A stretch of DNA of 64,000 nt from Callorhinchus milii (taxonomy: Eukaryota): assembly GCF_018977255.1 (NCBI RefSeq), contig NW_024704743.1, positions 28,522,001 through 28,586,000 of the forward strand, in the 5' to 3' direction. A program made the translations under genes and the position numbers. Numbering within the stretch: position 1 is the first letter of the stretch; every line of letters begins with the position of its first letter. This document shows, piece by piece, positions 9,816-61,820 of the stretch. The notes below the pieces were generated by a model. The model worked only from the letters and a program-made list of their open reading frames with translations. It did no database searches and was not told the origin of the DNA.

Positions 9816-10228
9816 TCACTCACTCATCTCTCACTCACTCATCTCTCACTCACGTTGCAATCTCAGTGGAAAGATTTTCGATTCGGATTCCAGAAAAGGA
9901 TCACAGATTCAAAGTAATTTGGGGTTTGGACTTTTTGTTGTAGTTGAAGCGGATTTAATGCGATTTTCCTTTGGTTTGGAAGCGTCAGAGACGGCTTCGC
10001 GGTTCGAGGTGAACTGAAAAGAACAGGACGGTATTTTGGGGGCGTTTTACAGCCTTATATATATATATATATGTTAGATTTTTTTTTGAAGCTGCAGAAA
10101 GCGGAGAGAGCCGGGGCTGCCTGCGGGCTGCAGGGACACACAGCAGCGGGTGTGGGGGCGTCTGGTGCAGCCACAGAGCAGCACTGTCTGTAAAGGCACA
10201 GACTGTCTGAGAGACCAGACTCTGAGCC

Positions 10229-11195
10229 ACACACACACAGACACACAGAGACACACACACACACACAGACAGACACACACACACACACACACAGACACAC
10301 AGACAGACACACACACACACACACACAGACAGACAGAGACACACACACACACACACAGACACACAGACAGACACACACACAGAGACACACACACACAGAG
10401 ACACACACACACAGACACACACACAGAGACACACACAGAGACACACACACAGAGACACACACACACACACAGACACACACACAGAGACACACACACACAC
10501 AGACACACACACACACAGACACACACACACACACACACACAGACACACAGACAGACACACACACAGAGACACACACACACAGACAGACACACACACACAC
10601 AGACACACACACACACACAGACACACACACACACACACACACACACAGAGACACACACACACAGAGACACACACACAGAGACACACACACAGAGACACAC
10701 ACACAGACACACACACACACACAGACACACACACAGAGACACACACACACACACAGAGACACACACACACACACACACACAGAGACACACACACACACAG
10801 AGACACACACACACACAGAGACACACACACAGACACAGACACACACAGACACACACACACACACAGACACACACACACACACACACAGACACACACACAC
10901 ACACAGACACACACACAGAGACACACACACACACACACAGACACACACACACACGCACAGAGACACACACACACACACACACACAGAGACACACACACAG
11001 AGACACACACACACACACAGACACACACACAGAGACACACACACACACACAGACACACAGACACACACACAGAGACACACACACACAGACACACACACAC
11101 ACGCACAGAGACACACACACACACACACAGAGACACACACACACACACAGAGACACACACAGAGACACACACACACACACAGAGACACACACAGA
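10229..11195. repeat. Compound (CA)n/CAGA/CAGAGA microsatellite
   Basis: Direct inspection. Confidence 0.97.
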
Positions 11196-11266
11196 GAGTG
11201 ATGAGCAGAAGCTGATAACGGTACAGGAGGAACTCATCATCTTTCGGTTATTCCGACTCCTGTTCC

Positions 11267-11307
11267 GGGGATTCCCATCGTTAAAGGGTTAAAGGTAGGA
11301 AAGTCCC
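11267..11307. promoter_or_regulatory. Paired NF-kB sites GGGGATTCCC and GGAAAGTCCC (=GGGACTTTCC)
   Basis: Two perfect kB decamers whose starts are 31 bp apart, with IRF-like half-sites on both sides. Confidence 0.65.
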
Positions 11308-11517
11308 TGTGAATGTGAAACGCAATGTGCACTCTTCCCCCCAGAGGAGCAATCGCTGTTTATACAATCCCACAAAGTACAGGGCAGGTTTGCAGCTCAG
11401 CAAGAGCTGAGGTTGGAGGAGGGGGACCTCAGAGTGAGTGATGTGGGAGTGATGCTGGAGAGTAACCAACTCAAACCCCACATCTTGGTGTTGCGAACAG
11501 AGGGGCTCAGTCTTTGC

Positions 11518-16485: not shown

Positions 16486-17811
16486 CCTTGTATTAGATCA
16501 ACCCTTTGCTTTCTTTATTTTCATTTTAACAGTTGGCTTATTTGATCTCAGAATTCTGCTGTCTTGCAGCATCAATGCAGCATCAAACAGTTTCTTAAAT
16601 GATAATAATAATAATCCTTGCATTTGCCTTATCAAGTCTTCGAGTAACGGACAGAACCAAAAGGGTTTAGCAGAGAGAAGGCGGAGAAGGATAGTGTGCT
16701 CGCATAACACTTGAAGGTTGTGACCTTTATGGTTTTAACACAGACCTTATTTAAAACGTGTGTTTAAAATGCGATATCAGTTGCTGTAGTCATTCACTTC
16801 ATGTGGGACATCGTTGTATGCAAATTGGCTGCTGCATTCGCCAAATATTCAGTCACTCCACTGTATAGTATACCTTTTGAAGTGCTTTGAGATGTTCAAT
16901 TGAACAAAATTGCACTGTTGCTGTTGCCTGGGAGCTTTATTAATCCTCGCATTTGATACAGATTTTGGAGAAGGTGGCAACATCACTTGTTTTATTGGCA
17001 AAGCTTATTTACTTTATTTTTGGATTTGAATTAAAAAAAGCCATGTTATTTGTTGATAAGGATATGTTAAGATCTGGTGCTTAGTGACTATGGCTTTTTT
17101 GCGAATGGTCACAAATTAAAACGTGATCCGCGAACTCACTATTGTGACCTAGTTGTGAATTGTACAGCTCAGAAGAGTTTAGAATTTACACTGAAAATAA
17201 TTGAGTGTTAAATAGCAACAACAAATTACACTTATATAACGCCTTTCACGTCGTAAAGACGTCCCAAGGCGTTGCACAGTCAGGGGTTTTTGGACCCAAG
17301 ATGGCAGTTGGTGTCAGGAGGGGCAAAGCAGCAAGGGTGGGAGGCCAAAGACACGGTCGAAGAGGAAAGTCTTTAGACGGGACTTGAAGGAGGCAAGAGA
17401 GGGGGTGAGGCGGAGGGATTACAGGTTTGCGTTTCAGAGTGTGGGGGCAGAGATGCTGAATGCCCGATTGCCAATGGTGCGGTGGGAAGTGCTGGAGACC
17501 TAAAGCAGGCTGGTGACCAACCTACCAATTAGGGCTTTGGCTTGTAGGCTTAACAGGAGCGGAGTGGGATGATTCTTGTCCCCAGTAAACTGGTCAGCCT
17601 TTTCAAGTCCTGCGGATGAGCCAGGTTGACTGTGTTATCAGCAGTGCCCTAGAGTACTGCGGACCCGCCTGGCTCAGGAACCAGACTACCGAGACTGTCA
17701 GAGGGCTGGCATGATTCTGACATTCCGTTGCCAGGCATTTCAACTTGGAGCCGGTTCAGCCAGTTCTCCATGGAGGATGATTATTAATATTTTTTGTTTC
17801 TGACTTTAGTT

Positions 17812-17979
17812 ATGGATCCTCTGAAGGCAGCCATTACCAACTTTTCCCTCGATCTCTTCAAACACCTGAACAAAGCAGATAAAACTGGGAATATCTTTGT
17901 ATCCCCGTTCAGTATCTCAACTGCTCTGGCTATGCTGCTTCTCGGTGCCGAAGGCAATACTGCAGCTCAGATGGTTAAG
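17812..17979 (+). CDS. serpinb1: Serpin coding exon 1 ([16 protein letters not shown]...AQMVK)
   Basis: Acceptor ttag at 17809, ATG at 17812, donor AAG|gtgggt. Confidence 0.92.
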
Positions 17980-20900
17980 GTGGGTGTGCAATGATTTCTG
18001 TTTTGTATATTGTTTTCTTTTGAAAATATTAGAGTTTACATACTTTCTCAGATCTTGGTATAATAGAGTACATGTTGGTTTATAGATCACACAGTGTATC
18101 CAGTGGTATAGCTATGTACAGGGAAGTAAATGCAGTAAAGAACTAGAAAATCATGCAATAATGTATTGGGAGCTGTACCACAGGGAACTGTGCAGCAATA
18201 CACAGAGGTACATGTTAAATTCTTGGGTTTCAGAGGATATCACAGGGTCACAAAGGAGGTTCGAAGAAGACCCTTTGGTCCATTTGAACTCATCCTTCTA
18301 GAACATCCACCCTACTGCCTCCCATTACAGCATCAAGCTTTTTAAAATTGATTTCTGAGTCTTGGCCACAACCACTCTGTCTGGTAACTCTCTGGGTAAA
18401 GAAATGCTTCCAGATGTCTGTCCTGAATAGATAGCTCTGAGACATTATCGTGATTTCACAATGTACCCAGTTTCCTATCTGCCACGTTTATTGCTGCCTC
18501 ACACTGTTTTGACATGGTGAACACGCAGCTTCCTTGGCAAATCCGTGGGGTATACATGCCTCCTATTTTTACTTCCTAAATGCAGGATAATGCATTTGTT
18601 TGTATTCAACTGAATTTGCCAGTCACCAGCCCACGTGCATGCTCTATCAAGCTCTCATTATTGACATCTTGGTGTCTGATCAATAGTTTCCATCTAAATG
18701 TGACTGACTGATCATGCCCACTGTATTGCAAACAAAATCCTTCCTCTCAACAATTAATCACTATAAAAAAGCGGTGCCTTTTTAAACCTGATAAACAGTT
18801 AATAATGTTATATTTTTACAGAAGTGTGGGTACATTTTGCTGAACACAAACCGTTATATAATGTAAACCTCACATAAGTCGTATCAGTTGGCACCATGTA
18901 TTTAATATGACATGCCACGTATGAGTTATGTCAAACTTGCATATATTATAAACTCTTGAACAGAACTTGGGCAGATGTATGACTTAGGCAGTTATACAAT
19001 TTATACAGATCAGACTTATGCAAGTTTTATTGTATTAAAAAGGGAAAATATTCCAAGTTGAAAGTGGGGAGTACGAAAATTTTTATCAGGCTTACTTGAT
19101 TAATTGTGTGTTTTTTCATGTCTGTAGGTGCTTCATTTTAATAAAGTGAAGGACATTCATTCAGAATTTCAGGCACTGCAGTCTGACATTGTCAAATTCA
19201 GTGCTCCGTGTCACGTGAAACTGGCGAATCGTCTCTACGGGGAGGAAAACATCACCCTGCACTCTGTAAGAAAAATTAATGTGTAAGAAGGATTAATCTG
19301 CAGCATTTTAAATGTAAATGCTTCAACTATTTTCAAATGCAAAGATCATTATTATTTCTTACAATGAACTATATACTTATTGATTGTCTAAAACATCGAA
19401 CACGCATCATTCACTAACACTGGTGAGTGTTCTGCTTCCCTTGATAATCTGAGTTGTTTCAGAGCACAATCTCACTAAATTCTTTTATTTTCCTTCCCTA
19501 AACCCTTATCCTTATTATTCATTGTTGCTAAATTTCTCCTGTCACTGTTCTTCCTCTGCATTTCCATGTGCTCTCTCCAAGGGAATTCGCTCCGCGGTCA
19601 CTTCTCCTCCAACATCCACCAACTCCCCACCCCCTCACTCCCACACTCCGACTGCTACCCATCCTCCCCTACTCACTTTTGTACCCGTTTCCCCATCCTC
19701 TGTCACCAAACTCATCCTATCCCTGAAACCAACCACCTGCTCCCTTGACCCCATCCCCACTCCACTCCTTATCTCCCAGCTCCACTTTCTTGCCCCACAT
19801 ATCACCGACATCGTCAACCTGTCCCTCTCCTCTGGCTCTGTCCCCATTCCCTTAAAAACTGCCACCATCACGCCCACCTTGAAAAAACCCTCCCTTGATG
19901 CGTCGCAGCTATCAAGCTACCGGCCCATCTCCAACCTCCCCTTTCTCTCCAAGGTCCTGGAAAGAGTTGTCGCCTCCCAACTGCGCTCTTTCCTTTCCAC
20001 CCATTCACTTTTCGAACCCCTTCAGTCAGGTTTCCGTGCTGCCCATAGCACAGAAACTGCCCTGGTCAAGGTCACCAATGATATCCTGACCATCTGTGAC
20101 CAGGGCTCCCTCTGCCTCCTCGTCCTCCTCGACCTATCGGCAGCATTCGATACGGTCGACCACGCTATCCTACTCCACCGCTTGTCCTCCCACCTCAACC
20201 TTCAAGGCACTGTCCTTGAGTGGTTTAGGTCGTACCTTTCTCACCGTCTTCACTTTGTCTCTACAAATGGCTTCTCCTCCACCCCCCGCAATGTCTCATG
20301 CGGTGTCCCTCAGGGCTCTGTCCTCGGTCCCCTCCTCTTCACCCTCTACATGCTCCCCCTCGGTGACATCATCCGCAGACATGGAGTTAACTTCCACATG
20401 TATGCGGATGACACCCAACTCTACCTTTCCTCCTCTACTCTCAACTCCACGACCACTGATGTCCTGACAGCCTGTCTGACATCGAGTCCTGGACAAGAGA
20501 CAACTTTCTTCAGCTTAACGTGCGAAAAACCGAGGCCCTCCTGATTGGCTCACGTCAGCGCCTCCGCACCTCAGGCGCTGACACCATCAGCATCCAAGGC
20601 TGCACTCTCCACCTCTCAAAGCCAGTCAGGAACCTCGGCGTTCTGTTCGACCCTGAGCTGTCCTTTCTCCCTCACATCCGCACCACAACTGGCACCGCCT
20701 TCCATCACCTCCGGAACATCGCCAGACTACGGCACTACCTCACCCCTCACGCTGCTGAAACCCTGGTCCACGCCTTTGTCACCTCAAGGCTGGACTATGG
20801 GAACTCTCTCCTCGCCGGCCTTCCCGCCCTCCCTCCACAAGCTGCAGGTCATTCAGAACTCTGCAGCTCGTGTACTGTCCCGCACCAGGCTTCGCGACCA

Positions 20901-23900
20901 CATCACTCCCACCCTCGCTCACCTCCACTGGCTCCCCATCCCCCAGAGGATCGAATTCAAGATCCTCATCCTCACCTATAAGGCCATCCACGGCCTTGCT
21001 CCCTCCTACCTCTCTGACCTACCTACCTGCCCGTACCCTCCGTTCCTCCGGCTCCGGTCTGCTCCACGTCCCCCGCCCCAATCGCCCTACCATCGGTGGT
21101 CGGGCCTTCAGTCTCTCAGCCCCCAGGCTCTGGAACTCTATCCCCCAGTGCCTTCGCCGCTTCCTCCCTCTCCTCCTTCAAGGCCGGTCTCAAAACCTTT
21201 CTCTTTGACCGAGCCTTCAGCCCCCCTCTCGACTCTCTTCCCCCTCCTCGCTCCCTCCCTTCCCTCCCCTCACCCTGACCATTTCCCCCCTGCTCGGGTC
21301 CTGACCCAACTGTGCAGCGCATTGGGACGTCCTCCTGACGTGAAAGGCGCTTTATAAATGGAATCTTGTTGTTGTTGTTGTTGTGCTCTGATCTTTGCAA
21401 TGCATGACGTTTGCCTCTCTACTGGTTCTACAGAAATACTTGGAGTCCACTTTAAAATTCTATCAGGCAGAATTTGGCGTTGTCGATTTTCCAGATAGAG
21501 CAGAAGAAGCCAGATCGCAGATCAATTCCTGGGTGGAGGAGCAGACTGAGGGTAAAATACCTTTAACAGTTAGTGGACACAAGATTGTCTACACTTTATG
21601 GCTGTTCTATTCCAAAAACTGATGTGCTAGAGTCTCTCATAACTTGTATTACATTAATTTGCGTCCAAAAATGTTTTCCTTTTTAACAAAGATGTTGTAT
21701 GTATTGCTTCAAATTAGGTAAAATCCCAAACTTGTTGGCTCAAGGAATGATCGATCAATTCACCAAACTTGTCCTCGTGAATGCCATCTACTTCAAAGGG
21801 AGATGGACAAAGAGTTTTGATAAAGAAGACACTGAGGAAAGGCTATTCTTCATCAGCAAGGTGCTGGAAGCCAAGAGGAAACATTTAGGAAACATTTTAT
21901 TTTCATTTATTACTTTATTATTAATGAGAGATTTTGAAAAAAAACTTTTTTTCAGGATGATTCCAAGACCGTGAATATGATGAGCCTGAAAGGAACATTT
22001 AACGTGGCTTATGTCGAGGAGCTTGAAACCCAAATCCTAGAGATCCCTTATGCTGAGAACAAACTGAGTATGTTCATCTTGTTGCCAGATTCCATCAATG
22101 ATAACTCTACTGGACTAGAAAAGGTACTGATATACAACAACAACAACAACAAGATTCCGGTTTTGAGACCGGCCTTGAAGGAGGAGAGGGAGGAAGCAAG
22201 GCGAAGGCACTGGGGGATGGAGTTCCAGAGCCTGGGGGCTGAAGGCCCGACCACCGATGGTAGGGCGATTGGGGCGGGGGACGTGGAGCAGACCGGAGCC
22301 GGAGGAACAGAGGGTACGGGCGGGTAGGTAGGGGGATATTAGGTCAGAGAGGTAGGAGGGAGCAAGGCCGTGGATGGCCTTATAGGTGAGGATGAGGATC
22401 TTGAAATCAATCCTCTGGGGGATGGGGAGCCAGTGGAGGCGAGCGAGGGTGGGTGTGATATGGTCCCGAAGCCTGGTGCGGGACAGTACATGAGCTGCAG
22501 AGCTCTGAATGACCTGCAGTTTGTGGAGGGAGGTGGCGGGAAGGACGGCGAGGAGAGAGTTCCCGTAGTCCAGCCTTGAGGTGACAAAGGCGTGGACCAG
22601 GGTTTTAGCAGCGTGAGGGGTGAGGTAGTGCCATAGTCTGGCGATGTTCTGGAGGTGATGGAAGGCGGTGCCAGTTGTGGTGCGGATGTGAGGGAGAAAG
22701 GACAGCTCAGGGTCGAACAAAACGCCGAGGTTCCTGACTGGCTTTGAGAGGTGGAGAGTGCAGCCTTGGATGCTGATGGTGTCGGCGCCTGAGGTGCGGA
22801 GGCGCTGACGTGAGCCAATCAGGAGGGCCTCGGTTTTTCACACGTTGAGCTGAAGAAAGTTGTCTCTCGTCCAGGACTCGATGTCGGACAGGCTGTCAGG
22901 ACATCGGTGGTCGTGGAGTTGAGAGTAGAGGAGGAAAGGTAGAGTTGGGTGTCATCCGCATACATGTGGAAGTTAACTCCATGTCTGCGGATGATGTCAC
23001 CAAGGGGGAGCATATAGAGGGTGAAGAGGAGGGGACCGAGGACAGAGCCCTGAGGGACACCACATGAGACAGTGCGGGGGGTGGAGGAGAAGCCATTTGT
23101 AGAGACAAAGTGAAGATGGTGAGAAAGGTACGACCTAAACCACTCAAGGACAGTGCCTTGAAGGTTGAGGTGGGAGGACAAGCGGTGGAGTAGGATAGCG
23201 TGGTCGACCGTATCGAATGCTGCCGATAGGTCGAAGAGGACGAGGAGACAGAGGGAGCCCTGGTCACAGATGGTCAGGATATCATTGGTGACCTTGACCA
23301 GGGCAGTTTCTGTGCTATGGGCAGCACGGAAACCTGACTGAAGGGGTTCGAAAAGTGAATTGGTGGAAAGGAAAGAGCGCAGTTGGGAGGCGACAACTCT
23401 TTCCCGGACCTTGGAGAGAAAGGGGAGGTTGGAGATGGGCCGGTAGCTTGATAGCTGCGACGCATCAAGGGAGGGTTTTTCAGGGTGGGTGTGATGGTGG
23501 CAGTTTTTAAGGGAATGGGGACAGAGCCAGAGGAGAGGGACAGGTTGACGATGTCGGTGATATGTGGGGCAAGAAAGTGGAGCTGGGAGATAAGGAGTGG
23601 AGTGGGGATGGGGTCAAGGGAGCAGGTGGTTGGTTTCAGGGATAGGATGAGTTTGGTGACAGAGGGTGGGGAAACGGGTACAAATGTGAGTAGGGGAGGA
23701 TGGGTAGCAGTCGGAGTGTGGGAGTGAGGGGGTAGGGGGTTGGTGGATGTTGGAGGGGAAGTGACCGCGGAGCGAATTCCCTTGATATAGTAATAATACT
23801 TGCATTTGATAATAGGGCCTATCGTGAAAATGTCTCAATGCACTTCACATGAGTTACGCGTAGTGACTGTATTTCTAGGGGAAAGTGGCAGCCAATTTGT

Positions 23901-26270
23901 TCACAGCCATAAAGTGAATGACCAGATTTTATCTGTGGGCTTATGATTCAGAGGCAAGAGGTACTGACTATCGTAACAAATTGATCCAGGCTGACACCAA
24001 CATATAATAATAAATCGTAGTCCTTGTAACTAATGAAAGAAGTTATAGTGTACTGTGACTTTTAGGAGTCAAGCATGTTGTGCATTGTAATGTAGGAATG
24101 TTGGAAAACATGAATAGGAGGTCATTGAATCCATCAGTTTATTAGATCTTGGCAGTGGGGCAGAGCAAGTTAAATATTAACCATAAAACCATCATTTTGG
24201 ATGGGTTCTTAAAGGCAAGTGGAGGGGAGGTGGAGAATCAAGGGAAAGCAAAATATTCTCCTGTGCTTAGAAAATGGCATGGTTACAAACTAAATTTATC
24301 TTTTTAAGAAAATAGTTTCCATTCTGAGGATCACTTGGAGCAACCTCCTGAGCTTGACTGTTCTCATAATATGAGGGAATCTAAACCAGTAGTGTGTTTT
24401 CCTCTGGCCAGGAGACTCTCTATCAGCTCCCTGAATATAATTGACATTTACATAGCGCCTTTCATCTCAGGAGGACATCTCAAGGCGCTAAACAACAATG
24501 GTTTGGCATCTAAGCTGGGGGTGGGAGCCAAGAGGGGGTGAGGTGGAGAAAGATGACTGAAAAGCACAATCAGAGGAAGGTCTTGAGACAGACCTTGAAT
24601 GAGGTGAGGGATAGGATGAAAGCCTGCCTGCCTGAATCCCCACCAATAATAAGGGATTTAGTTCAACTGTCTTGTCGGGGGTCGAGGAGAAACTTTGCAG
24701 CTCTTTTCCTCATGTGATTTCAAATAACTTGTGAGTACATGGTTAAAATTCAAACTCCAAAGCGTTGCCTGCTAGGGAACTCTTGCCCCCTTTGCCGTTG
24801 GTCCTCTCTGCCCCGAGCTGTCCGATCTGCTGACTTTCTTTTAATATTCTACTTGGTCATCATCCGCTGAAATTCTTCCCTTATCAAAAGGAAGAACATC
24901 ACCCTTGATTGTTTAGGTAATTATATAGATGGAATCTGTTTAAACAGAATTGGGTGTTTACTTTCAGTTTTAATGTGACTCGCCCACAATGCTTTCCTCT
25001 TGGAAAGCAGCTCGGGAGGGATTGTTTTTCTACAGGGCGGGAAAGGAAGTAAACACAGTCCGCAAGCAATGAATGATGTGGCACCAAAAATGAATTGAGG
25101 TTCTTGAACAGAGGCTGTAATTCCTCATCAGTAGCTGTTCTGTCATTAAGTGGCTGCTGTGACATTTAATTCTATTTGACCCTGGGTGCTGATAAGGTGA
25201 CATCAGTACCACAAGACCTTTGTACCTGGTGTTCACTCAAAGCTTTGAATCTTATAGTCATGCACTCCTATCGGTCATCATCATCCAGCACTGAAAAGAG
25301 TGCAGGTTAATGCTTTCTGTATGGCAGGATGACAGGTATTTGCTGATAAATAACTTGCAGATGACAAGGCAAGAAAAGCTGACACAGGTTTGCCTACAAA
25401 AACAGTCACAATTCTAAACATTAAATACTGTAATTTGCTTTGAGATGTTTCAAAATAAGTTATTCTAAAATTACAAGATTGAAAGAATGCATTTAAGCAA
25501 GAGTTATAATAATAATCTTTGCATGTGATATAGGGCCTTATCGTGTTGGTGTCAATGGCTAAAGTGCTTCACAGGAGTCAACAAGGTCAAAGAGTTATAT
25601 AAATAAATACAAGCTTCGAGACATCTCAAAGACGTGATAAGGTGCTATATCAGATGCAAGGATTATTATATTAATAATTGATTATGCATGAAACACAACA
25701 GTACTTAAGATTTTCTGTCGCTCGAGGGAAAGCCCTGCAAAGTTTCTCCTTGTACTGAGTCCCTTATTGGTGGGGATTCAGACAGGCGGGCTTCTGTAAC
25801 GGTAAATTAAACTTGTAAAATCATGTGCTCTGTTTAATGAATGTTACCATTTCCCCCCTTTCCATTAGCTTGAGAAGAGCCTCACGTTCGATAAATTGCT
25901 GAAATGGACGAGTGCGGAAAGCTTGAGTTCCTCCACAGTGAATGTTTATCTGCCCAGATTCAAGCTGGAGGAAAGCTATGATCTGCAGGCCACACTGTCC
26001 AGTATGGGAATGTCAGATGTATTTGATGGTGCGAAAGCTGATTTCTCAAGAATGACTGGAGAACGGGGTCTCTCACTGACCAAAATTGTTCACAAATCTT
26101 TTATAGAGGTGACTGAAGAGGGGACTGAAGCAGCAGCGAGCACAGGGGCTGTTCTGATGTTCCGTTGCCTCAACTCGGATGAGTTTGTGGCTGATCACCC
26201 TTTTTTATTTTTCATTAGGGAAAGCAAAACCCAAAATATTTTATTTTTTGGCCGATTCTCAATCCCTTAG
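17812..26270 (+). CDS. serpinb1: Clade B (ov-)serpin, SERPINB1/leukocyte elastase inhibitor-like, 6 coding exons, 378 aa
   Basis: Exons 17812-17979, 19128-19265, 21434-21551, 21718-21860, 21956-22123, 25869-26270 (168/138/118/143/168/402 nt = 1137 nt). All introns are GT-AG and the frame is continuous. Motifs: [36 protein letters not shown] hinge, [12 protein letters not shown]. No signal peptide or CD loop. Paralog assignment (B1 vs B6) is uncertain. Confidence 0.93.
18858..19034. mobile_element. Tc1-mariner/Tigger-like MITE, degenerate
   Basis: Imperfect TIRs GTAAACCTCACATAAGTC / GACTTATGCAAGTTTTATTG, TA flanks. Confidence 0.45.
19128..19265 (+). CDS. serpinb1: Serpin coding exon 2 ([15 protein letters not shown]...[15 protein letters not shown])
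   Basis: tgtag acceptor, gtaag donor, LANRLYGE motif; not in the ORF track. Confidence 0.92.
19578..21383 (+). mobile_element. L2-clade LINE, 5'-truncated, RT domain with frameshifts, (TTG)n tail
   Basis: [52 protein letters not shown]. Confidence 0.95.
21434..21551 (+). CDS. serpinb1: Serpin coding exon 3 ([10 protein letters not shown]...[11 protein letters not shown])
   Basis: tacag acceptor, G|gtaaa donor, INSWV motif. Confidence 0.92.
21718..21860 (+). CDS. serpinb1: Serpin coding exon 4 (KIPNLL...[13 protein letters not shown]...FFISK)
   Basis: attag acceptor, AAG|gt donor, serpin signature. Confidence 0.92.
21956..22123 (+). CDS. serpinb1: Serpin coding exon 5 (DDSKTVNMM...LSMFILLP...STGLEK)
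   Basis: tttcag acceptor, AAG|gtact donor. Confidence 0.92.
22133..23784 (-). mobile_element. L2-clade LINE, near-identical inverted copy of 19578-21383
   Basis: Same RT motifs, same 5' end, 3' internal deletion. Confidence 0.95.
25869..26270 (+). CDS. serpinb1: Serpin last coding exon with reactive centre loop
   Basis: Polypyrimidine-tag acceptor; [38 protein letters not shown] stop. Confidence 0.95.
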   Translation, partial: LEKSLTFDKLLKWTSAESLSSSTVNVYLPRFKLEESYDLQATLSSMGMSDVFDGAKADFSRMTGERGLSLTKIVHKSFIEVTEEGTEAAASTGAVLMFRCLNSDEFVADHPFLFFIRESKTQNILFFGRFSIP

Positions 26271-43400: not shown

Positions 43401-44976
43401 AGGTGAAAGGTATTGAAAGGTATATCAAATGCAGGGATTATTTTTTAAATTAAAAGAATTTACAGAAACTGGCTTGAAAATTCAGGCTGGAAAGTGGATT
43501 GACTGTATATTTTTTCGTAGGTGAAATGTGGCAGCCAGTTTGTGCACAGCAATATCCCACAAACAGCCATGCAGTGAGTGACCAATTTTATTTGGGGGAT
43601 TTGTTGGCCAGGACTTTGGGAGAAATAACCTTCTCTTTTTGAATAGTGCCATGGAATCTTCAACAGGACCTCGGTTTAACATCTCATCCAAAGGATGGCA
43701 CCTCCGACAAGCAACACCCCCCTAGAAATGCACTGGTGTGTCAGCTTAAGACAATGTGATTCTAAGTCCCGACATGGGGCTTGGACCTTCTGACAATCTT
43801 CTGACTCAGAGACAAGAGTGCTATCACTGAACCAGGCTGGCACACAAATAGCAATCTTTTGTTACGTCAACAGTGCAATAAAAAGATCGCTTCTTGTAGC
43901 TACCTAATGACGTAAGATCATTAACCACTAATAATCATTCACCTGCACAAATCAATCAGGTTCCAGGAGGCACCATAAGGGATGGCTAGTCACAATGTTT
44001 CTTCCTCCTCCTCCTCCTGTCAAACCCTTTACATGAAATGAAATTGTCTCATTTCCATATAGCATTTCATCTGATCATAAATGGCAATGTTCTCTCAACT
44101 AAGTTCACAGCCAGCCTGTGACTCAAGCTCATTGGTGTTGAAACTCTTATGCTTTACAGCATCTTTTTAAATTGGGCTGAGACACCTTGTTGCAGACAGG
44201 GTCATCTCCAACTGGGAGCTGTCAGCAGTGCAGAGATCGCTTTATGTAAAGAGGAACCTTGTGCTCTTGAACAGGAAGGAGATACGGCGGGCAGACAATT
44301 AATGGACTCCATTGACATGCATGTCAGCCCTTTGAGGATTCCTGGACAAAATATTGTTTAGAATCATAGAGCATAAAAGAAGATTTATATCAGGTCATGT
44401 GGCTATGCAACGGTGACACTGCTGAAGCACGTTGTAAAGTATCACAGTATACTTTGTGAAAACATTACACAATAAAAGAGATGAGGTTTCAGCCCCGCAC
44501 GGTCGGTAGCACTCTCGTCTCTGAGTCAGAAGGGTTTGGGTTTGTGTCCCATGATGGGACTTTGAACTCATTGTCCAGCAGTTTTGCAATGGGCATTTTC
44601 TTCAATGCCTTTGCACATGTGGTGCATCAAAGAAGTATAATCCTCGCATTGACACAACAGGCTCTTTCTATCCCAATATCTTTCCTGACCCACTCCTCAA
44701 TTTTTATCACATCAAGCAGAATAAATTCTTCAGCATTTGCAGACATTTTGCTATCCTGCTGATTGAAAACAAATTGCAATGAATTTAAAGTCACGGCAGC
44801 AGGTCCTCCTCACATTACACTTACTCTGTTCGCTGTGGTCCTGTGTACACGGTTTTGAGAACAACAAGTCCATGATTCTTGCTGAAACACAGCGAGACCA
44901 TTCCAAAGCCTCCAGCGTCTAGGGGCTTCTTCTCAATCAGCTCAGTGGAGTCAATGCGGATTTTATCTAAAGACAT
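28198..44976 (-). CDS. RIPK1: Receptor-interacting serine/threonine kinase 1, 11 coding exons, 695 aa
   Basis: Exons (-): 44976-44825, 42824-42671, 41205-41068, 40031-39806, 36617-36468, 33529-33453, 32785-32683, 32112-31528, 29944-29879, 28723-28568, 28478-28198 (2088 nt, GT-AG, frame continuous). Motifs: [27 protein letters not shown] caspase site, [18 protein letters not shown]-terminal death domain ([18 protein letters not shown]). Confidence 0.95.
28568..28723 (-). CDS. RIPK1: RIPK1 RHIM exon ([19 protein letters not shown])
   Basis: RHIM core VQIG, canonical splice sites. Confidence 0.92.
29007..29384 (+). mobile_element. tRNA-Ala SINE, longer subfamily
   Basis: Family similarity with an extra internal segment. 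Confidence 0.85.
29879..29944 (-). CDS. RIPK1: RIPK1 putative 66-nt symmetric exon ([21 protein letters not shown])
   Basis: Acceptor ctattttggtttttag, donor CAG|gtaaga, phase 1-1, no stop codon. Confidence 0.7.
30455..30790 (-). mobile_element. tRNA-Ala SINE
   Basis: Family similarity. Confidence 0.8.
31528..32112 (-). CDS. RIPK1: RIPK1 coding exon 8 (intermediate domain)
   Basis: Open 585 nt; [19 protein letters not shown] resembles the human K377/Y384 region. Confidence 0.9.
32683..32785 (-). CDS. RIPK1: RIPK1 coding exon 7 ([11 protein letters not shown]; caspase-8 cleavage region)
   Basis: Matches human KRMQSLQLD. Confidence 0.9.
33453..33529 (-). CDS. RIPK1: RIPK1 coding exon 6 ([13 protein letters not shown]...)
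   Basis: 77 nt, phase-compatible, RPFY motif. Confidence 0.88.
35147..35573. mobile_element. hAT/Charlie-like MITE with nested SINE tail
   Basis: TIRs CAAGGGTTCCCAAACT / AGTTTGGGAACCAATG; left flank TTCTAGAC. Confidence 0.65.
36468..36617 (-). CDS. RIPK1: RIPK1 coding exon 5 (GDRPD...[16 protein letters not shown])
   Basis: Kinase subdomains X-XI. Confidence 0.92.
37030..37290 (-). mobile_element. L2 3' end inserted in a CA-rich low-complexity tract
   Basis: Matches the L2 3' UTR and tail. Confidence 0.85.
37815..38168 (-). mobile_element. tRNA-Ala SINE, longer subfamily
   Basis: Family similarity. Confidence 0.85.
38231..38475. mobile_element. MITE, PIF/Harbinger-like
   Basis: TIRs GGCTATAAGAAAATCAC / GCGATTTTCTTACAGCC flanked by TAA and TTA; internal palindrome. 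Confidence 0.7.
39806..40031 (-). CDS. RIPK1: RIPK1 coding exon 4 ([13 protein letters not shown]...APEHL...KSDVYSF)
   Basis: DLG motif characteristic of RIPK1, activation loop. Confidence 0.93.
41068..41205 (-). CDS. RIPK1: RIPK1 coding exon 3 (PLSVKGRI...[12 protein letters not shown])
   Basis: Catalytic loop, canonical splice sites. Confidence 0.93.
42019..43489 (+). repeat. ~510-bp direct duplication (42019-42528 / 42971-43489) flanking RIPK1 coding exon 2
   Basis: Shared unique flank plus SINE, offset ~952 bp. Confidence 0.9.
42671..42824 (-). CDS. RIPK1: RIPK1 coding exon 2 (LLEEGKMM...[12 protein letters not shown])
   Basis: Kinase subdomains III-V, canonical splice sites. Confidence 0.92.
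44825..44976 (-). CDS. RIPK1: RIPK1 coding exon 1 ([10 protein letters not shown]...LDAGGFG...[10 protein letters not shown])
   Basis: gccATG start; exon begins at acceptor 45030; gtaag donor. Confidence 0.92.
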
Positions 44977-45099
44977 GGCTGTTCTTACTGGGCTTTCAGA
45001 CTTTGATCATAACTGGTTAGCGTCTTTTGCCTGTTGTTTAAAAAAAGAACAGTAAGTAAATGCCAGAACAGTGGATACTACTTGAAGAAGCAATAAAAT

Positions 45100-52810: not shown

Positions 52811-52908
52811 CTGACAATGTTTGGAATAATCCTGGCAAAGAACCCGACCCCTTGCCCCACAGCCCCCACCTCTCACACCCTCTGCACAACCCGCACATTC
52901 CCCCAAAC

Positions 52909-54380: not shown

Positions 54381-54530
54381 ACCATGGCGGGGGCTGCAAA
54401 GAACAAGCCCCTGGTTGAGCCCCCGAAGGGTTGCAGTTTCTGACCAGATTCCCCCCCGGGTTTCCTGCCCTGTTTCCTACCCACAGATGTGTGTCGGAGG
54501 CCGCGCTGCTCCCAAACATCTACAGTGTCA
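54378..54530 (-). other. Candidate RIPK1 first exon/promoter ending in gccATG|GTGAG
   Basis: GC-rich; kB-like GATTCCCC and GGGTTTCC; Kozak ATG at 54385-54383 followed directly by a donor. Confidence 0.45.
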
Positions 54531-54540
54531 AAAAAAAACC

Positions 54541-56092
54541 TCTGTCTGTGTGTGTGTGTGTGTGTCTGTGTGTGTCTCTGTGTGTGTGTGTGTGTCTCTG
54601 TGTGTGTGTGTCTCTGTGTGTGTGTCTCTGTGTGTGTGTCTCTGTGTGTGTGTGTGTCTCTGTGTGTGTGTCTGTGTGTGTGTGTGTGTTTGTCTCTGTG
54701 TGTGTCTGTGTGTGTGTGTCTGTGTGTGTGTGTGTCTCTGTGTGTGTGTGTGTCTCTGTGTGTGTCTCTGTGTGTGTGTGTCTCTGTGTGTCTGTGTGTG
54801 TGTGTCTCTGTGTGTGTGTGTGTGTGTCTCTGTGTCTGTGTGTGTGTGTGTCTCTGTGTGTGTGTCTCTGTGTGTGTGTTGTCTCTGTGTGTGTGTCTGT
54901 GTGTGTGTGTGTGTCTCTGTGTGTGTGTGTGTCTCTGTGTGTGTCTCTGTGTGTGTGTGTGTCTCTGTGTGTGTGTGTGTGTGTGTGTCTCTGTGTGTGT
55001 GTGTGTGTGTCTCTGTGTGTTTGTGTGTGTGTCTCTGTGTGTGTGTCTGTGTGTGTCTCTGTGTCTGTGTGTCTCTGTGTGTGTGTCTGTGTGTCTCTGT
55101 GTGTGTGTGTGTGTGTCTCTGTGTCTGTGTGTGTGTGTCTCTGTGTGTCTCTGTGTGTGTGTCTGTGTGTGTGTGTTTGTCTCTGTGTGTGTGTCTGTGT
55201 GTGTGTGTCTCTGTGTGTGTGTCTGTGTGTGTGTGTCTCTGTGTGTGTGTCTGTGTGTGTGTGTGTGTCTCTGTGTGTGTGTGTGTGTGTCTCTGTGTGT
55301 GTGTCTGTGTGTGTGTGTGTGTCTGTGTGTGTGTGTGTGTCTCTGTGTGTGTGTGTGTCTCTGTGTGTGTGTGTGTGTGTGTCTCTGTGTGTGTGTGTGT
55401 TTGTGTGTGTGTCTCTGTGTGTGTGTCTGTGTGTGTCTCTGTGTCTGTGTGTCTCTGTGTGTGTGTCTGTGTGTGTGTGTGTCTCTGTGTGTGTGTCTGT
55501 GTGTGTGTGTCTCTGTGTGTGTGTCTGTGTGTGTGTGTGTGTCTCTGTGTGTGTGTGTGTGTTTGTCTCTGTGTGTGTGTGTGTCTCTGTGTGTGTGTGT
55601 GTGTGTCTCTGTGTGTGTGTGTTTGTGTGTGTGTCTCTGTGTGTGTGTCTGTGTGTGTCTCTGTGTCTGTGTGTCTCTGTGTGTGTGTCTGTGTGTGTGT
55701 GTGTCTCTGTGTGTGTGTCTGTGTGTGTGTGTCTCTGTGTGTCTCTGTCTGTGTGTGTGTGTCTGTGTGTCTCTGTGTGTCTGTGTGTCTCTGTGTGTGT
55801 GTCTCTGTGTGTCTGCGTGTCTCTGTGTGTGTGTGTGTCTCTGTGTGTCTGTGTGTCTCTGTGTGTGTGTCTGTGTGTCTCTGTGTCTGTGTGTCTCTGT
55901 GTGTGTCTGTGTGTCTGTATGTATGTGTCTGTCTGTGTGTGTGTCTGTGTGAGTGTGTGTCTGTGTCTCTGTGTGTGTGTGTGTGTCTGTGTGTGTCTGT
56001 GTGTGTGTGTGTGTGCGTCTGTGTCTCTGTGTGTGTGTTTGTCTGTCTGTGTGTGTGTGTCTGTCTATCTGTGTCTGTGTCTGTGTGTGTCT
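54541..56092. repeat. Compound (TG)n/TCTG/TCTCTG microsatellite
   Basis: Direct inspection. Confidence 0.97.
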
Positions 56093-56422
56093 GACATACC
56101 TGCGCGGAGTGTCCGGGAGGAGAGGCGCGTCACATTGTATCCCCAACTCCGTACAATGTGTCGCCTCCTCACTCTGTTGCCTTCCGCGGCTCCCAGTCCC
56201 GCCTGGTGACCCCTCACCCCACCCATATGACAAGGGATCTCAGGTCACGCCAGCAAACACCGGCCTCCCCACAGCCTCCCCACAGCCTCCAGCAGAGCAA
56301 AGGTGGCTCTCTGTGACCTGCTTTCTTTTTCTGGTGATCGTCTTTTGCTTCCTTAGTAACCGTGAACGCGTGTCAACATATGCCACATAACAACAACAAC
56401 AACAACAACAACCACCACAACA

Positions 56423-56751
56423 ATAATAATAATAATAATCCTTGCATTTGATATAGCGCTTTTCACGTCGGGAGGACGTCCCAAAGCGCTTCACAGAATA
56501 TACTGTAAAGTGAATTGACTGTATATTTGTGGGCGAACGCGGCAGCCAATTGCGCACAGCAGTGTCCCACAAACAGTCGTAGATTGAAAATGACCAATTT
56601 ATTATTGTTTTGGTCTTGGAGGGATTATTATTAGGAGTGTGGAGTAAGGAAACTTGCCCAAGGTTTCGCCCTGACCTGCCTGGAATTGAACTCAGGTTCA
56701 AGCGAGACGCTTGCAAAGCGAGTGCTCTAACCACTGAGCTACAGGACTCCA
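56423..56751 (-). mobile_element. tRNA-Ala SINE
   Basis: Family similarity. Confidence 0.9.
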
Positions 56752-56759
56752 CAGTCCTG

Positions 56760-57550
56760 TAACAACCACCGCCACCGCCGCAAATTACACTCGAGCTGCA
56801 CATTTTACATCAGGAGGACATCGCACAAAGGCGCTGGGCAGTCGGGTAGTCGGGGGTCTGCACCCGAGCTGGTGGTTGGGTTCAGGAGACGTGGAGGGTG
56901 CGGGAGGGTAGGGGGAGGGTGACCGATGGCACGGTCGAAGGGGAGGGTCTTAAGATGGGTCTTTAAGGAAACAAGGGAGGTGGCGAGGCGGATGGACTGT
57001 GGGATGGAGTTCCAGAGGGTGGGGGCAGGCTGACCGAAGGCCCGCTCACCAATGGTGGGGCGGGTGAGGCGGAGGACGCGAAACAGGCCAGAGGCTGCTG
57101 AGCGGTTGGAGCGGGACAGGTTGGTAGTGGGTTAGGAGGTCACAGAGGTAGGGGAGAGTAAGGCCATGGAGGGCTTTAAAGGTGAGCACCAGGATCTTGA
57201 ACCTTATCCTCTGAGTGATGGGAAGCCAATGGAGCCAGACAAGGATGGGCTGATAGGGTCGCTGCGTCTGGTGCGGGAGAGGACATGGGGTGGAGGGAGG
57301 AGTTGGGGAGGCCGACAAACAAGGAGTTTGCATAGTCGAGCTTGTATGTGATGAATGCGTGGATGAGGTTCTCGGTGGCCTGCGGTGAGAGACCGGGCAA
57401 TCTTGTGGAGGTGGGGAAAGACGGAGCAGGACATTGCACGGATGTGGGGGAATGAAAGACAGGTGGGGGTCGAACAGGGTGCCGAGGTTCCGGATTGGCT
57501 TTGTGAAGTGTAGAGTGCATCCATTGAGGGAGATTTCAAAAGCTGGCATG
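56760..57550 (-). mobile_element. L2 3' fragment
   Basis: IRNLG, LHWLPI, FKILVLTFKALHG. Confidence 0.85.
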
Positions 57551-57980
57551 GTTGAAATGAGTCTTTGCAACTGTGACAAGTCCACAACACCTCTTTATTA
57601 TAATAATAATCCTTGCATTTGATATAAGCACCTTATTGTCTCAAAGCGCCTCACAGGATGTACTGTAAAGTGGATTGACAGTTTATTTTGTGGTGATACC
57701 CTGCAGCCAGTTGCATACAGCAATGTCTCACAAAAAGCCATGAAGAAAATGACCAATATTATTTGGGGGATTGTTGTCCATGACACCAGGAGAAACTGCT
57801 TTCTCTTTGCGAATAGTGCAATAGGATCTTTTACGTCCACCTGAACAGTCAGATAGGACCTCTTTCACTTGTATAAGTGCCACTCACGTAAGAGATTGTC
57901 TCCAAGCACTTTCTGTAGGTGGTCTGTGATTTCCTGCAGCTCTACTCCACTGCCCTATCCCTCCCTTCTGCCAACTGCCA

Positions 57981-59207
57981 ATAATAATCCCTCCAAAAAA
58001 AAAACAATAATAAATTGGTCATTTTAAATCTACGACTGTTTGTGGGACATTGCTGTGTGCAATTGGCTACCGCGTTCGCCCACAAATATACCATCAATTC
58101 ACTTACAGTGTGTTCTGTGAAGCGCTTTGGGACGTCCTCCCGACGTGAAAAGCGCTATATCAAATGCAAGGATTATTATTATTATTATTATTAACTGAGG
58201 CCTGCTTCATGTTCTCTGATTCACCATAGGCTGGTGAGCTTTCAGACACTTTTTTTTACACTTTCTAGGATTTTGTGGAGTCCTGCAGATTAACAGTTAA
58301 AGCGCTCGCCGAGCAAGCAAGAGGACCTGAGTTCGATTCCCAGGCAGGGCGAAACGTTGGCCAAAAAAAAAATGCAGTCAATTCACAGTATATTCTGTGA
58401 AGTGCCTTTAGACATCTCGAAGGCACGGTAAGGCACTATATCAAATGCAAGGATTATTATTAATTGTTTCTCCCTCGGCATCAAACCCCTGCTCACAGCT
58501 TCAAAACCAATCTAAAATCTCTTTAGCTGCGCTTTTAGCCAACTCCCCACCAGCTTGGGTACCCGTTCCATATGGCAGAAATTCCATTAGACAAACAATC
58601 CTGAAGTAATAATAATCCTTGCATTTGATATTGTGCCTTTCACATGAGGAAGACATCTCAAAACGCTTCACATAGCTTACTGTAAAGACTGTATCTTGTA
58701 GGTGGTCGCAGCAGCCAATTTGCACACAACAATGTGCTACAAACAGCAATGATGTTTTTTGGAGGGAGTTGTTGGCTAGGACACCAGGAGAAAATCCTAA
58801 ATCGTGTCATGAGATCTTTAACTCTTGGAGTCCAAGACCCTATTGGATCTTAGTTCTTGGATCCTTTAACGTATTGGTTAGAGCACTCGCCTTGCAAGTG
58901 AGGTTCGATTTCCAGGTGGGGTGAAATATTAGGCAAGTTTCTTTACTCCACATTGCTCTGGTTACTTAGAAGTATGTAGGAATTCATTTGTTAGTCAATT
59001 GTCGGATTGCTTTTCTGGTGGTAATAATCCCTTAAAAAAAAAATAAGTTGGTCACGCTGTTTGTGGGACACTGCTGTATGCAATTGGTTTCCACGTTTCA
59101 CCCAAAAACATGCAGTCAATTCATTTTATAATATATTCTGTGAAGTACTTTGAAACATCTCAAAGACTTGATAAGACACTGTATCAAATGCAAGGATTAT
59201 TATTATT
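57981..59207. mobile_element. Cluster of SINE copies and fragments
   Basis: 57981-58192 (+), 58276-58462 (+), ~58605-58820 (-), 58875-59207 (+). Confidence 0.8.
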
Positions 59208-60353
59208 TAACATCCTCTGAACAAGCAGAGAGGATCTCAGTTTAATGCCTGAGTCGAAGGATGGCAGCTCATATATTTTACTGGAGGAAGTTCTTCTCGC
59301 TTTAGAAAATCACACCACCAAAGGCTAAACTCCTAGACCCGGATGAGTGGAGACAGTAAAGGAGTTCGGACAAGGTCAGTTAGGTGCCATTGGCAGCATT
59401 GCCCAACATTGGCAAAGAAGGAATTGCTCCGCTAATTGGCGAACAGATAGAGCAATGGATTTCCACGTTCTAACCCCTTTGAATCCTTCAGCATAGAAGG
59501 AGGCCATTCAGCCCATCATGTCTGAGATGGCTCTTTGAAAGAGCTATTCAATTAGTCCCATTCCCCTGCTCTTTCTCCATAGGCTTGCAATTTTTTTTAT
59601 TTTGAATTATATATCCAATTCCATTTTGAAAGTTATTATTGAATCTGGTTCCACCACCCTTGTCAGATAGTTCATGCCAAATCGTAACACTTGCTGCACA
59701 AAAAAATTCTCCTCATCTTCCCTCTGTTTCTTTTGGCAATTATCTTAAATCTGATTACTGACCCACTCATCAATGAGTTTCTCCTTATTTACCCCCAAAA
59801 CAAACAGTCAATTAATTTTATAATATATTCTGTGAAGCACTTCGAAACATCTCAAAGACTCAATAAGACGCAGTTTCTCCTTATTTAGTCTATCGAAAAC
59901 CCCGTAAAATATTGAACACATCTGTTAAACCATTCCTTAACCGTCTCTGCTCTGAGAACAACAATCCTTGCTTCTCCAGTTTGCATCATGATCGCGCACA
60001 TTGCACCATAAAGGTTTCTTAAACGAACATCCTGTTTCAGTGTTTGAATACTTAAAATATTGTGATGATTTGAGTCAACACAACTGAGCCAGGCTGACAC
60101 AACAGGAAGCCTTTCACAATGCGGAACATCTCGGAGCACTTTGCAAAGACTGAGCCCCTCTGTTCGCAACACCAAGATGTGGGGTTTGAGTTGGTTACTC
60201 TCCAGCATCACTCCCACATCACTCACTCTGAGGTCCACCCCCCTCCAACCTCAGCTCTTGCTGAGCTGCAAACCTGCCCTGTACTTTGTGGGATTGTATA
60301 AACAGCGATTGCTCCTCTGGGGGGAAGAGTGCACATTGCGTTTCACATTCACA

Positions 60354-60394
60354 GGGACTTTCCTACCTTTAACCCTTTAACGATGGGAATCCCC
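60354..60394. promoter_or_regulatory. Paired NF-kB sites GGGACTTTCC and GGGAATCCCC
   Basis: Identical inverted copy of 11267-11307. Confidence 0.65.
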
Positions 60395-60454
60395 GGAACA
60401 GGAGTCGGAATAACCGAAAGATGACGAGTTCCTCCTGTACCGTTATCAGCTTCT

Positions 60455-60744
60455 GCCCATCACTCACCTGATGCCCATCACTCACCTGATGCCCATCACT
60501 CATCTGATGCCCATCACTCACCTGATGCCCATCACTCACCTGATGCCCATCACTCACCTGATGCCCATCACTCACCTGATGCCCATCACTCACCTGATGC
60601 CCATCACTCACCTGATGCCCATCACTCACCTGATGCCCATCACTCATCTGATGCCCATCACTCACCTGATGCCCATCACTCACCTGATGCCCATCACTCA
60701 CCTGATGCCCATCACTCATCTGATGCCCATCACTCACCTGATGC
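60455..60744 (-). repeat. 18-bp minisatellite x16 (GGGCATCAGGTGAGTGAT on -)
   Basis: 13 units carry GTGAGT and 3 carry ATGAGT. Confidence 0.95.
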
Positions 60745-60971
60745 TCGGGCCCAGAGGCAGCAAAGGGCAGAGGAGACGAGTGAAAACTCACACCATCGAT
60801 GTGGTGTCTGTCCACCGGTGCCAACAGCTCACAAGTGAACAGCGGCTCCTCCTCCCTGTGCTGTGCTCAGTGCAGCAGCGACAGCCCCAACATCAGCTCT
60901 GAGCTCTCCCACAGCAGCAGCTGCGGTTGGACCATAAGCGTCTGAGTGCAGCGCAGAGTGACCCTGAGGGC

Positions 60972-61428
60972 TGTGTGTGTGTGTCTGTGTGTGTGTGTGT
61001 CTGTGTGTGTGTGTGTCTGTGTGTGTCTGTGTGTGTGTCTCTGTGTCTGTGTGTGTGTCTCTGTGTCTGTGTGTGTGTCTCTGTGTATGTGTCTGTGTGT
61101 GTGTGTCTCTGTGTGTGTCTGTGTGTGTGTGTGTGTGTCTCTCTGTGTGTATGTGTCTCTGTGTGTGTATGTGTCTCTGTGTGTGTATGTGTCTCTGTGT
61201 GTGTGTGTGTCTCTGTGTGTGTCTGTGTGTGTGTCTGTGTGTGTGTCTCTGTCTCTGTGTGTGTCTGTGTGTGTGTGTGTCTCTCTGTATGTGTGTGTCT
61301 CTGTGTGTGGGTGTGTGTCTGTGTGGGTGTGTGTCTCTGTGTCTGTGTGTCTGTGTTTGTGTCTGTGTGTGGGTCTGTGTGTCTGTGTGTATCTGTGTGT
61401 GTCTGTCTGTCTGTCTGTGTGTGTGTGT
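60972..61428. repeat. Compound (TG)n/TCTG microsatellite (paralog of 10229-11195)
   Basis: Direct inspection; same flank as in the left arm. Confidence 0.97.
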
Positions 61429-61820
61429 GGCTCAGAGTCTGGTCTCTCAGACAGTCTGTGCCTTTACAGACAGTGCTGCTCTGTGGCTGCACCAGACGCC
61501 CCCACACCCGCTGCTGTGTGTCCCTGCAGCCCGCAGGCAGCCCCGGCTCTCTCCGCTTTCTGCAGCTTCAAAAAATATATATATATATAAGGCTGTAAAA
61601 CACACCCAAAATACCGTCCTGTTCTTTTCAGTTTACCTCGAATCGCGAAGCCGTCTGACGCTTCCAAACAAAGGAAAATCGCATTAAATCCGCTTAACAA
61701 CAATAAAAAATCCAAACCCAAATTACTTGAATCTGAGATCCTTTTCGAGAATAGAAAGTCGTTGGCAGTGGGTATGTGAGTGAGTCAGTGAGATACTTTT
61801 TGCCTTTTGGCTCACTTTAA

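What the first reader, a model, noticed from the sequence alone, without database searches (positions are those of the whole stretch)
60455..60790. Minisatellite that is an array of 13 perfect 5' splice donors
On the - strand (RIPK1 sense) the 18-bp unit reads GGGCATCAG|GTGAGTGAT, a consensus U1 site. 13 of 16 units are intact and 3 are inactivated (ATGAGT). Spacing is a multiple of 3 (6-aa HQVSDG unit). The first unit follows a pyrimidine tract (ctcgtctcctctgccctttgctgcctct...CAG|GT), like a recursive splice site. The left arm has lost this whole block. It could produce a ladder of 5' leader lengths, act as a U1 landing pad, or tune expression through copy number.
Basis: partly seen in the sequence, partly recalled or inferred. 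Interest (0 to 1): 0.7.

Follow-up and report, generated by a model that had tools for sequence, protein, structure and literature searches.

The report
Splice-donor repeat upstream of RIPK1
A short DNA repeat in front of a fish cell-death gene carries thirteen copies of a strong splice signal, but it looks like one signal copied by slippage, a kind of repeat already known from human genes and lancelets, and nothing yet shows that the copies are used.

Summary
The array is real: 16 units of 18 bp, 13 with CAG|GTGAGT and 3 with CAG|ATGAGT. It is one motif amplified, not 13 independent sites. It lies in an inverted duplicated block with two kappaB-type sites and a TATA-like (TA)n tract. It is 4.2 kb upstream of a different non-coding exon (56221-56100), at whose donor RNA-type contigs of two studies break off; that exon is probably RIPK1's usual first exon. 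No protein effect is possible, because an in-frame stop lies 33 nt before the RIPK1 ATG. The recursive-site reading is weak. Best reading (0.5): unit 1 is, or was, the real donor of an upstream non-coding exon, and the other units are passengers, as in human F7 and amphioxus 'mirage' repeats. A chance motif in silent DNA (0.33) is close behind; a working ladder or U1 pad gets 0.12. The scan noted an acceptor-type counterpart elsewhere in this genome (SCRG1), but not this DNA.

The parts
60454..60744 (-). 18-bp minisatellite, 16 units; 13 CAG|GTGAGT and 3 CAG|ATGAGT. Every unit also holds a CANNTG E-box, an inverted pentamer pair (TGATG/CATCA) and, if transcribed, a 4-codon uORF
60732..60740 (-). 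unit-1 donor-like site (cut between 60738 and 60737); the first strong donor after the inward TATA/Inr-like site
   Evidence: -13.0 kcal/mol against -6.5 at best over 61561-60745; use not shown
60753..60786 (-). C-rich pyrimidine stretch ending 12 nt before the unit-1 CAG; poor as an acceptor tract
60745..60971 (-). unique 227-bp GC-rich spacer, present only in the right arm
60972..61429 (.). CA/GA microsatellite (458 bp; 966 bp in the left arm)
61561..61591 (-). (TA)n tract matching TATAWAWR on both strands, with an Inr-like A at 61561, 28 nt downstream on the - (inward) strand; the left arm has the same pair (10066/10096)
   Evidence: weak, since (TA)n matches trivially; consensus patterns recalled
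60385..60394 (-). kappaB-type site GGGGATTCCC (also left arm 11267)
   Evidence: label recalled
60354..60363 (-). kappaB-type site GGAAAGTCCC (also left arm 11298)
   Evidence: label recalled
60143..61791 (-). right arm of the inverted duplication; inner parts 99-100% and outer part 84% identical to the left arm
9842..11517 (+). left arm, upstream of a clade-B-type serpin gene; lacks the spacer and the array
56100..56221 (-). spliced non-coding exon ending CAG|GTATGT; probably RIPK1 exon 1 (partner exon inferred, start not shown)
   Evidence: table 8, records 17 (X12) and 25 (X6)
44825..45030 (-). RIPK1 first coding exon; ATG at 44976, in-frame TGA at 45009-45007
17810..26270 (+). intact serpin gene (6 coding exons, 378 aa), tail to tail with RIPK1; its ATG exon needs an upstream non-coding exon
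   Evidence: 'clade B' is my label from the exon pattern, recalled

Best explanation
An exon-intron-boundary ('mirage'-type) minisatellite whose extra copies are passengers. Steps: (1) The block once held one strong donor, CAG|GTGAGT, between two GCA triplets 18 bp apart (shown in the flanks). Slippage duplicated it, and unequal exchange, helped by the unit's inverted pentamers, expanded it to 16 (inferred). (2) That donor is, or was, the end of an upstream non-coding exon transcribed inward from the TATA/Inr-like site of the duplicated block (inferred, not shown). (3) RIPK1's usual leader comes from another exon 4.2 kb downstream (splicing at its donor shown; partner and start inferred). (4) If the upstream exon is used at all, mostly unit 1 is chosen and units 2-16 leave with the intron, as in F7 (by analogy). 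The RIPK1 protein cannot change (shown).
For: Unit 1 is the first strong donor after the inward TATA/Inr pair: -13.0 against -6.5 kcal/mol. A full-consensus donor in a random 18-mer is rare (0.08%). In this window 5 of 13 tandem arrays start at a donor or donor-like site pointing into the array. Two of them are established donors (serpin coding exon 3; the RNA-supported 56100 donor), against 0.10 expected (P about 0.005, post hoc). The posterior for real-donor descent is 0.20-0.92, depending on the prior. The only variant that spread destroys the invariant G+1, which gives no sign of selection for many donors. Two RNA-type contigs from two studies stop aligning at 56099 and run on for 84 other letters. 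F7 uses only the most upstream of 5-9 identical donors (PMC1557585, abstract and Discussion), and amphioxus mirages do not disturb splicing (PMC3087553, passages).
Against: No read or contig was seen that uses unit 1 or covers the upstream exon; only the last two units were laid. The implied exon would be about 820 nt long with a 458-nt CA tract inside. (TA)n fits TATA both ways, and the outward direction also has donor-like sites in both arms (61771, 9854) and CpG-rich, 84%-conserved sequence. 0 of 16 established donors in the window have the full MAG|GTRAGT. The GAGTGATG octamer recurs twice more in the block without CAG|GT, so the unit may come from a local DNA motif. One 677-nt contig of run X1 joins the right-arm flank to sequence that leaves the window at 60465, where the left arm leaves it, so the array may be missing from some copies. 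IFI6 shows that downstream units can be used (PMC4526556, passage).
Confidence: 0.5

Rival explanations
1. Chance donor look-alike in untranscribed regulatory DNA. The array is a promoter/enhancer VNTR between kappaB-type sites and an outward-facing TATA promoter. If it does anything it acts as DNA, as a spacer or as an array of E-boxes (CAGGTG/CAGATG; CTCACCTG is a ZEB-type motif, recalled).
For: 16 of 16 units keep CANNTG, including the three that lost GT; this is weak, because most point changes would keep it. GAGTGATG recurs at 60224 and 60213. Outward donor-like sites lie at matching places in both arms. The spliced exon seen in RNA-type contigs lies 4.2 kb downstream. The distance across the repeats is 977 bp in the left arm and 973 bp in the right, as if only spacing mattered.
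Against: A full-consensus donor turns up in only about 1 in 1,200 random units, and real donors do seed arrays in this window. An Inr-like site at 27-34 nt was found only inward, in 2 of 2 arms. X11 and X12 show small depth (1.0, 1.31) in bin 60362-60490, with the pieces not listed.
Confidence: 0.33
2. One reading: an alternative RIPK1 leader uses several units, giving an 18-nt ladder. Retained units add uORFs and U1 sites, so copy number tunes RIPK1 output.
For: 13 identical strong donors on the sense strand. The G|GUGAG core is mostly unpaired in folds of the array. Each retained unit adds an ATG-GGC-ATC-AGR-TGA uORF; there are 19 ATGs in the array. Precedent: IFI6 uses two downstream units (PMC4526556, passage citing Turri 1995).
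Against: In-frame stop before the RIPK1 ATG. F7 pseudo-donors stay silent unless they match the consensus perfectly (PMC1557585, Discussion); this unit is near-perfect, so minor use is possible. The spreading variant kills the donor. The block is absent from the left arm and perhaps from some right-arm copies (X1 record 8). The usual spliced leader exon lies elsewhere.
Confidence: 0.12
3. Recursive (AG|GT) splice site or zero-length exon inside a RIPK1 5' intron.
For: CAG|GT junction with a pyrimidine stretch and a branch-point-like TTCAC about 43 nt upstream (branch consensus recalled).
Against: AG|GT is built into any CAG|GT donor. The tract is T-poor (0.23 against 0.41-0.68 in 17 of 17 real acceptors), ends 12 nt before the CAG, and an earlier AG lies 7 nt upstream. 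No strong upstream donor lies within 820 nt (best -6.5), and the nearest one would give an intron of only 54 nt.
Confidence: 0.05

Closest known systems
Human F7 intron 7 VNTR (37 bp; PMC1557585, abstract and Discussion read)
   Same: Tandem units each repeat an identical 5' splice site, starting at the first unit.
   Different: In F7 the first unit is a proven coding-exon donor. Here no use is shown, the unit is 18 bp, the donor is near-perfect, and the setting is a non-coding 5' region.
Human IFI6 (6-16) minisatellite (Turri, Cuin, Porter 1995; seen only as a title and one sentence in PMC4526556; the paper is not held)
   Same: A minisatellite offering multiple donors in an immune gene; the closest precedent for the proposed ladder.
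   Different: There two downstream units are used and change the protein. Here use is not shown and the protein cannot change.
Amphioxus 'mirage' repeats in Adh3 and globins BflGb6/9 (PMC3087553, passages read)
   Same: Tandem duplication of an exon-intron boundary, with some units losing the signal; normal splicing is reported as unaffected.
   Different: Those sit on annotated coding exons. Here the parent exon is only inferred.
Variable internal tandem repeats in human segmental duplications (PMC2812944, outline and passages read)
   Same: A repeat that differs between recently duplicated copies, at a possible exon-intron boundary.
   Different: Transcript support was required there; none is in hand here.

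Membership tests
Exon-intron-boundary minisatellite (F7/IFI6/mirage type) | Head-to-tail units each carrying a splice signal | tested here: met
   13 of 16 units
Exon-intron-boundary minisatellite (F7/IFI6/mirage type) | The terminal unit spans an authentic, used exon-intron boundary | tested here: inconclusive
Exon-intron-boundary minisatellite (F7/IFI6/mirage type) | Unit number varies between alleles | tested here: inconclusive
   One X1 contig leaves the window at the array edge; allele, paralog or misjoin cannot be told apart
Exon-intron-boundary minisatellite (F7/IFI6/mirage type) | One or few units used in mature RNA | not testable with these tools
   Only assembled contigs were on offer, and a single lay
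Recursive splice site | Juxtaposed AG|GT | tested here: met
   trivial for any CAG|GT donor
Recursive splice site | Strong polypyrimidine tract next to the AG | tested here: not met
   T 0.23 against 0.41-0.68; proximal pyrimidines 0.45 against 0.45-1.0 in 17 real acceptors
Recursive splice site | Lies inside a long intron with an upstream donor (recalled) | tested here: not met
   Lies upstream of the RNA-supported exon at 56100; best upstream donor within 820 nt is -6.5; DNA beyond 64000 not seen
Promoter/enhancer VNTR carrying factor sites | Motif in every unit, near promoter elements | tested here: met
   CANNTG in 16 of 16 units; kappaB-type sites 60-100 bp away
Promoter/enhancer VNTR carrying factor sites | Factor binding or a copy-number effect on expression | not testable with these tools
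   Needs ChIP, EMSA or reporter assays

The most novel reading that the evidence does not exclude
An NF-kB-inducible upstream first exon, shared by duplication with the neighbouring serpin gene, splices into RIPK1. Its donor has been amplified into a polymorphic array, and each later unit chosen adds one more four-codon uORF. Array length, or its presence, would then set RIPK1 protein dose during inflammation: a splice-and-translation rheostat built from one tandem repeat.
Probability: 0.07. Interest if true: 0.6.

Novelty: new member of a known kind. Interest (0 to 1): 0.2.

Why it matters
Under the best reading it matters little: it is one more donor-bearing minisatellite, in a cartilaginous fish (species taken from an unchecked scan note). 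If transcribed, it would be a clean natural test of 'first donor wins' (F7) against 'several donors used' (IFI6), with 13 identical near-perfect sites, 3 dead ones as internal controls, and a paralogous arm without the array. The side observation that tandem arrays in this window tend to start at splice donors may be worth a genome-wide count.

Tried and rejected
Own genome not held, so there is no genome-wide count of such units and no search for a third copy. Run search with 60466-60972: no RNA holder listed; 4 of 24 rows, all one study and of unrecorded kind, hold 73-83% of 30 words. Neither fact is used as evidence. Lay of 4 of the 24 runs on 56070-60490: X11 and X12 have no cover in several bins, including 60214-60361 and 59918-60065, which proves nothing. 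X6 covers unique DNA upstream of the 56100 exon, but may hold DNA. SINE matches filled the joint and loose-end tables, so the letters beyond 56099 and beyond 60465 were not shown. Coding role of the array's open frames: only low-complexity Pfam hits below cut-off; rejected. The fold z-score of -4.2 is not counted, because shuffles destroy periodicity and the centroid is empty. My first reading, an outward-only promoter (stated), was weakened. No earlier scan note on this DNA. Paper searches found no description of this locus; a recalled UPF3A VNTR case was not found and is not used. PMC10078293 (passages) gave background only. No supplements were read; those of PMC10078293 and PMC2812944 may list further donor-bearing repeats.

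Full report
Observation. The array is as described. TRF gives period 18, 16.2 copies, at 60454-60744. On the - strand the donors cut after 60738, 60720, and so on down to 60468; 13 of 16 read CAG|GTGAGT and units 2, 6 and 14 read CAG|ATGAGT. The 4- and 8-unit spacing of the variant points to one mutation copied in blocks (inference). The flanks show a GCA triplet at both ends of a single unit, a simple seed for slippage. The unit holds inverted pentamers that let units pair with one another. The donor is stronger by U1 pairing (-13.0 kcal/mol) than all 15 coding donors of the window (-4.3 to -11.8), and the AT variant falls to -6.3 (U1 end recalled). The 13 copies are one event. A random 18-mer unit carries MAG|GTRAGT in 0.06-0.14% of trials and AG|GTRAG in 0.4-1.3% (three null models, 300,000 trials each).

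Setting. RIPK1 runs on the - strand. Its 11 coding exons, 44976 to 28198, are open throughout, and two exons tested match RIPK1 best in the PDB. An intact serpin lies tail to tail with it on the + strand (17812-26270). The array sits in an inverted duplication, 60143-61791 against 9842-11517. The inner parts are nearly identical (140 of 140, and 4 differences in 323) and the outer part is 84% identical, which suggests an old duplication with recent conversion (inference). Both arms have two kappaB-type decamers and a (TA)n tract (labels recalled). The left arm lacks the 227-bp spacer and the array, and joins its CA tract to the last 8 letters of a unit, which fits deletion better than insertion. 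Oddly, the span across the repeats is 977 bp on the left and 973 bp on the right; I cannot explain this. Earlier scan notes call the genome elephant shark; I did not check that.

Where RIPK1's leader comes from. The ATG exon starts at 45030 and has a stop in the RIPK1 frame 33 nt before the ATG. The HQVSDG frame would join in phase and end there, so the array cannot extend the protein. I laid 4 of the 24 listed runs on 56070-60490, a stretch that holds only the last two units. A 207-nt contig of X12 and a 187-nt contig of X6, from two studies and both 'RNA?' by the tool's guess, align without a mismatch up to 56099 and then run on for 84 other letters. That is the predicted donor CAG|GTATGT at 56100 plus one shared G, and exon 2 begins with G. 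The partner's letters were not printed, and contigs cannot show a start, so 'RIPK1 exon 1' is an inference. It rests also on the lack of a pyrimidine tract upstream and on neither contig having an unaligned part at its other end. The array is thus 4.2 kb upstream of the leader exon that is seen.

Results that cut the other way. X11 and X12, from one study, show small depth (1.0 and 1.31) in the last bin, 60362-60490. The pieces are not listed; they could come from this arm, the left arm or elsewhere. A TATA match with an Inr-like site 27-34 nt downstream exists only in the inward direction, in 2 of 2 arms; this is weak, because (TA)n matches trivially. From that site, unit 1 is the first strong donor (best before it: -6.5). 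In this window 5 of 13 merged TRF arrays begin at a donor or donor-like site pointing into the array, leaving aside trivial (GT)n matches and two weak hits. Two are established donors, against 0.10 expected (P about 0.005, noticed post hoc). With about 5% of real donors near consensus (2,360 of 45,519, PMC1557585 Discussion, used as a proxy), the posterior that unit 1 descends from a real donor is 0.20, 0.38, 0.66 or 0.92 for priors of 0.4%, 1%, 3% or 2 in 13. This moved me from my first reading to a mirage-type origin as slightly the likelier.

Against function of the extra copies. The one variant that spread removes the invariant G+1. The left arm does without the block. One 677-nt contig of run X1 aligns from 59813 to 60465, through right-arm-specific flank, with 10 differences and no gap. 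It carries the left-type letter at 60425, and its last 24 letters leave the window exactly where the left arm does. It accounts for all of X1's depth in the last bin (6.43 of 6.44), though the tool skipped 102 letters at repeats. This may be an array-less allele, a third copy or an assembly misjoin. In human F7, 5-9 identical donors in a VNTR are functional, yet only the most upstream one is used, and only perfect-consensus sites compete (PMC1557585, abstract and Discussion). In amphioxus, mirage repeats do not disturb splicing (PMC3087553, passages). IFI6 is the counter-example, with two downstream units used (PMC4526556, passage citing Turri 1995; original not held).

Recursive site. The AG|GT is part of any CAG|GT donor. 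The acceptor half is poor: T content is 0.23 against 0.41-0.68 in 17 of 17 real acceptors, the tract ends 12 nt before the CAG, and an earlier AG lies 7 nt upstream. No long upstream intron is in view.

DNA-level reading. Both unit types are E-boxes, and the GAGTGATG octamer recurs twice in the kappaB block without a CAG|GT. Donor-like sites also lie at matching places in the outward direction of both arms. A promoter VNTR with an accidental donor therefore remains a close rival. Nothing here tests binding.

Verdict. It works like an F7- or mirage-type boundary repeat, but membership is not shown, because the defining feature, a used boundary in unit 1, is untested. Eight paper searches found no account of this locus, and the scan has no note on it, though it noted an acceptor-type array in SCRG1 of the same genome. 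New member of a known kind; interest 0.2.

Noticed in passing
window 52908-54381 (-): A 1474-bp array of GAGCT/GGGCT pentamers in RIPK1 intron 1, 53% G on the sense strand, with 92 AGCT. It resembles an immunoglobulin switch-mu region (resemblance recalled; one search, listed only mammalian and IMGT papers, not read). It starts right at a donor-like GCCATG|GTGAGC (54383).
   Followed up: partly
window 9854(-), 19265(+), 54383(-), 56100(-), 60738(-): 5 of 13 tandem arrays begin at a donor or donor-like site; two are established donors, against 0.10 expected (post hoc). Splice donors may seed repeats in this genome.
   Followed up: partly
window 10228-11204 against 60457-61429: The span between the conserved parts of the two arms is 977 bp (almost pure CA/GA) against 973 bp (CA, spacer and array): conserved spacing, coincidence or assembly effect.
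   Followed up: no
window 59813-60465: A contig of run X1 joins right-arm flank to a left-type end without the array: possible presence/absence polymorphism, gene conversion, third copy or misjoin.
   Followed up: partly
window 7576-7782 (-): An exon-like stretch with a strong pyrimidine tract and AG, an ATG|GTAAGA donor and an open 69-aa frame, 2 kb beyond the left arm's outward donor-like site; no Pfam or Atlas hit.
   Followed up: partly
window 16419-16485 (+): A candidate serpin exon 1: TTATAA, a kappaB-like GGAAATCCC and a strong AAG|GTGAGT donor at 16479, next to the end of a LINE.
   Followed up: no
window 54383-54520 (-): A possible 138-nt extra RIPK1 5' exon between the CA tract and the pentamer array, with an acceptor-like and a donor-like end.
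   Followed up: no
window 19578-21197 and 22159-23786: Two 96%-identical LINE copies in opposite orientation inside the serpin gene, flanking three of its coding exons; they could pair in the pre-mRNA.
   Followed up: no
window 42003-42528 and 42955-43489: A 91%-identical direct duplication of about 530 bp on both sides of RIPK1 coding exon 2 (42824-42671).
   Followed up: no
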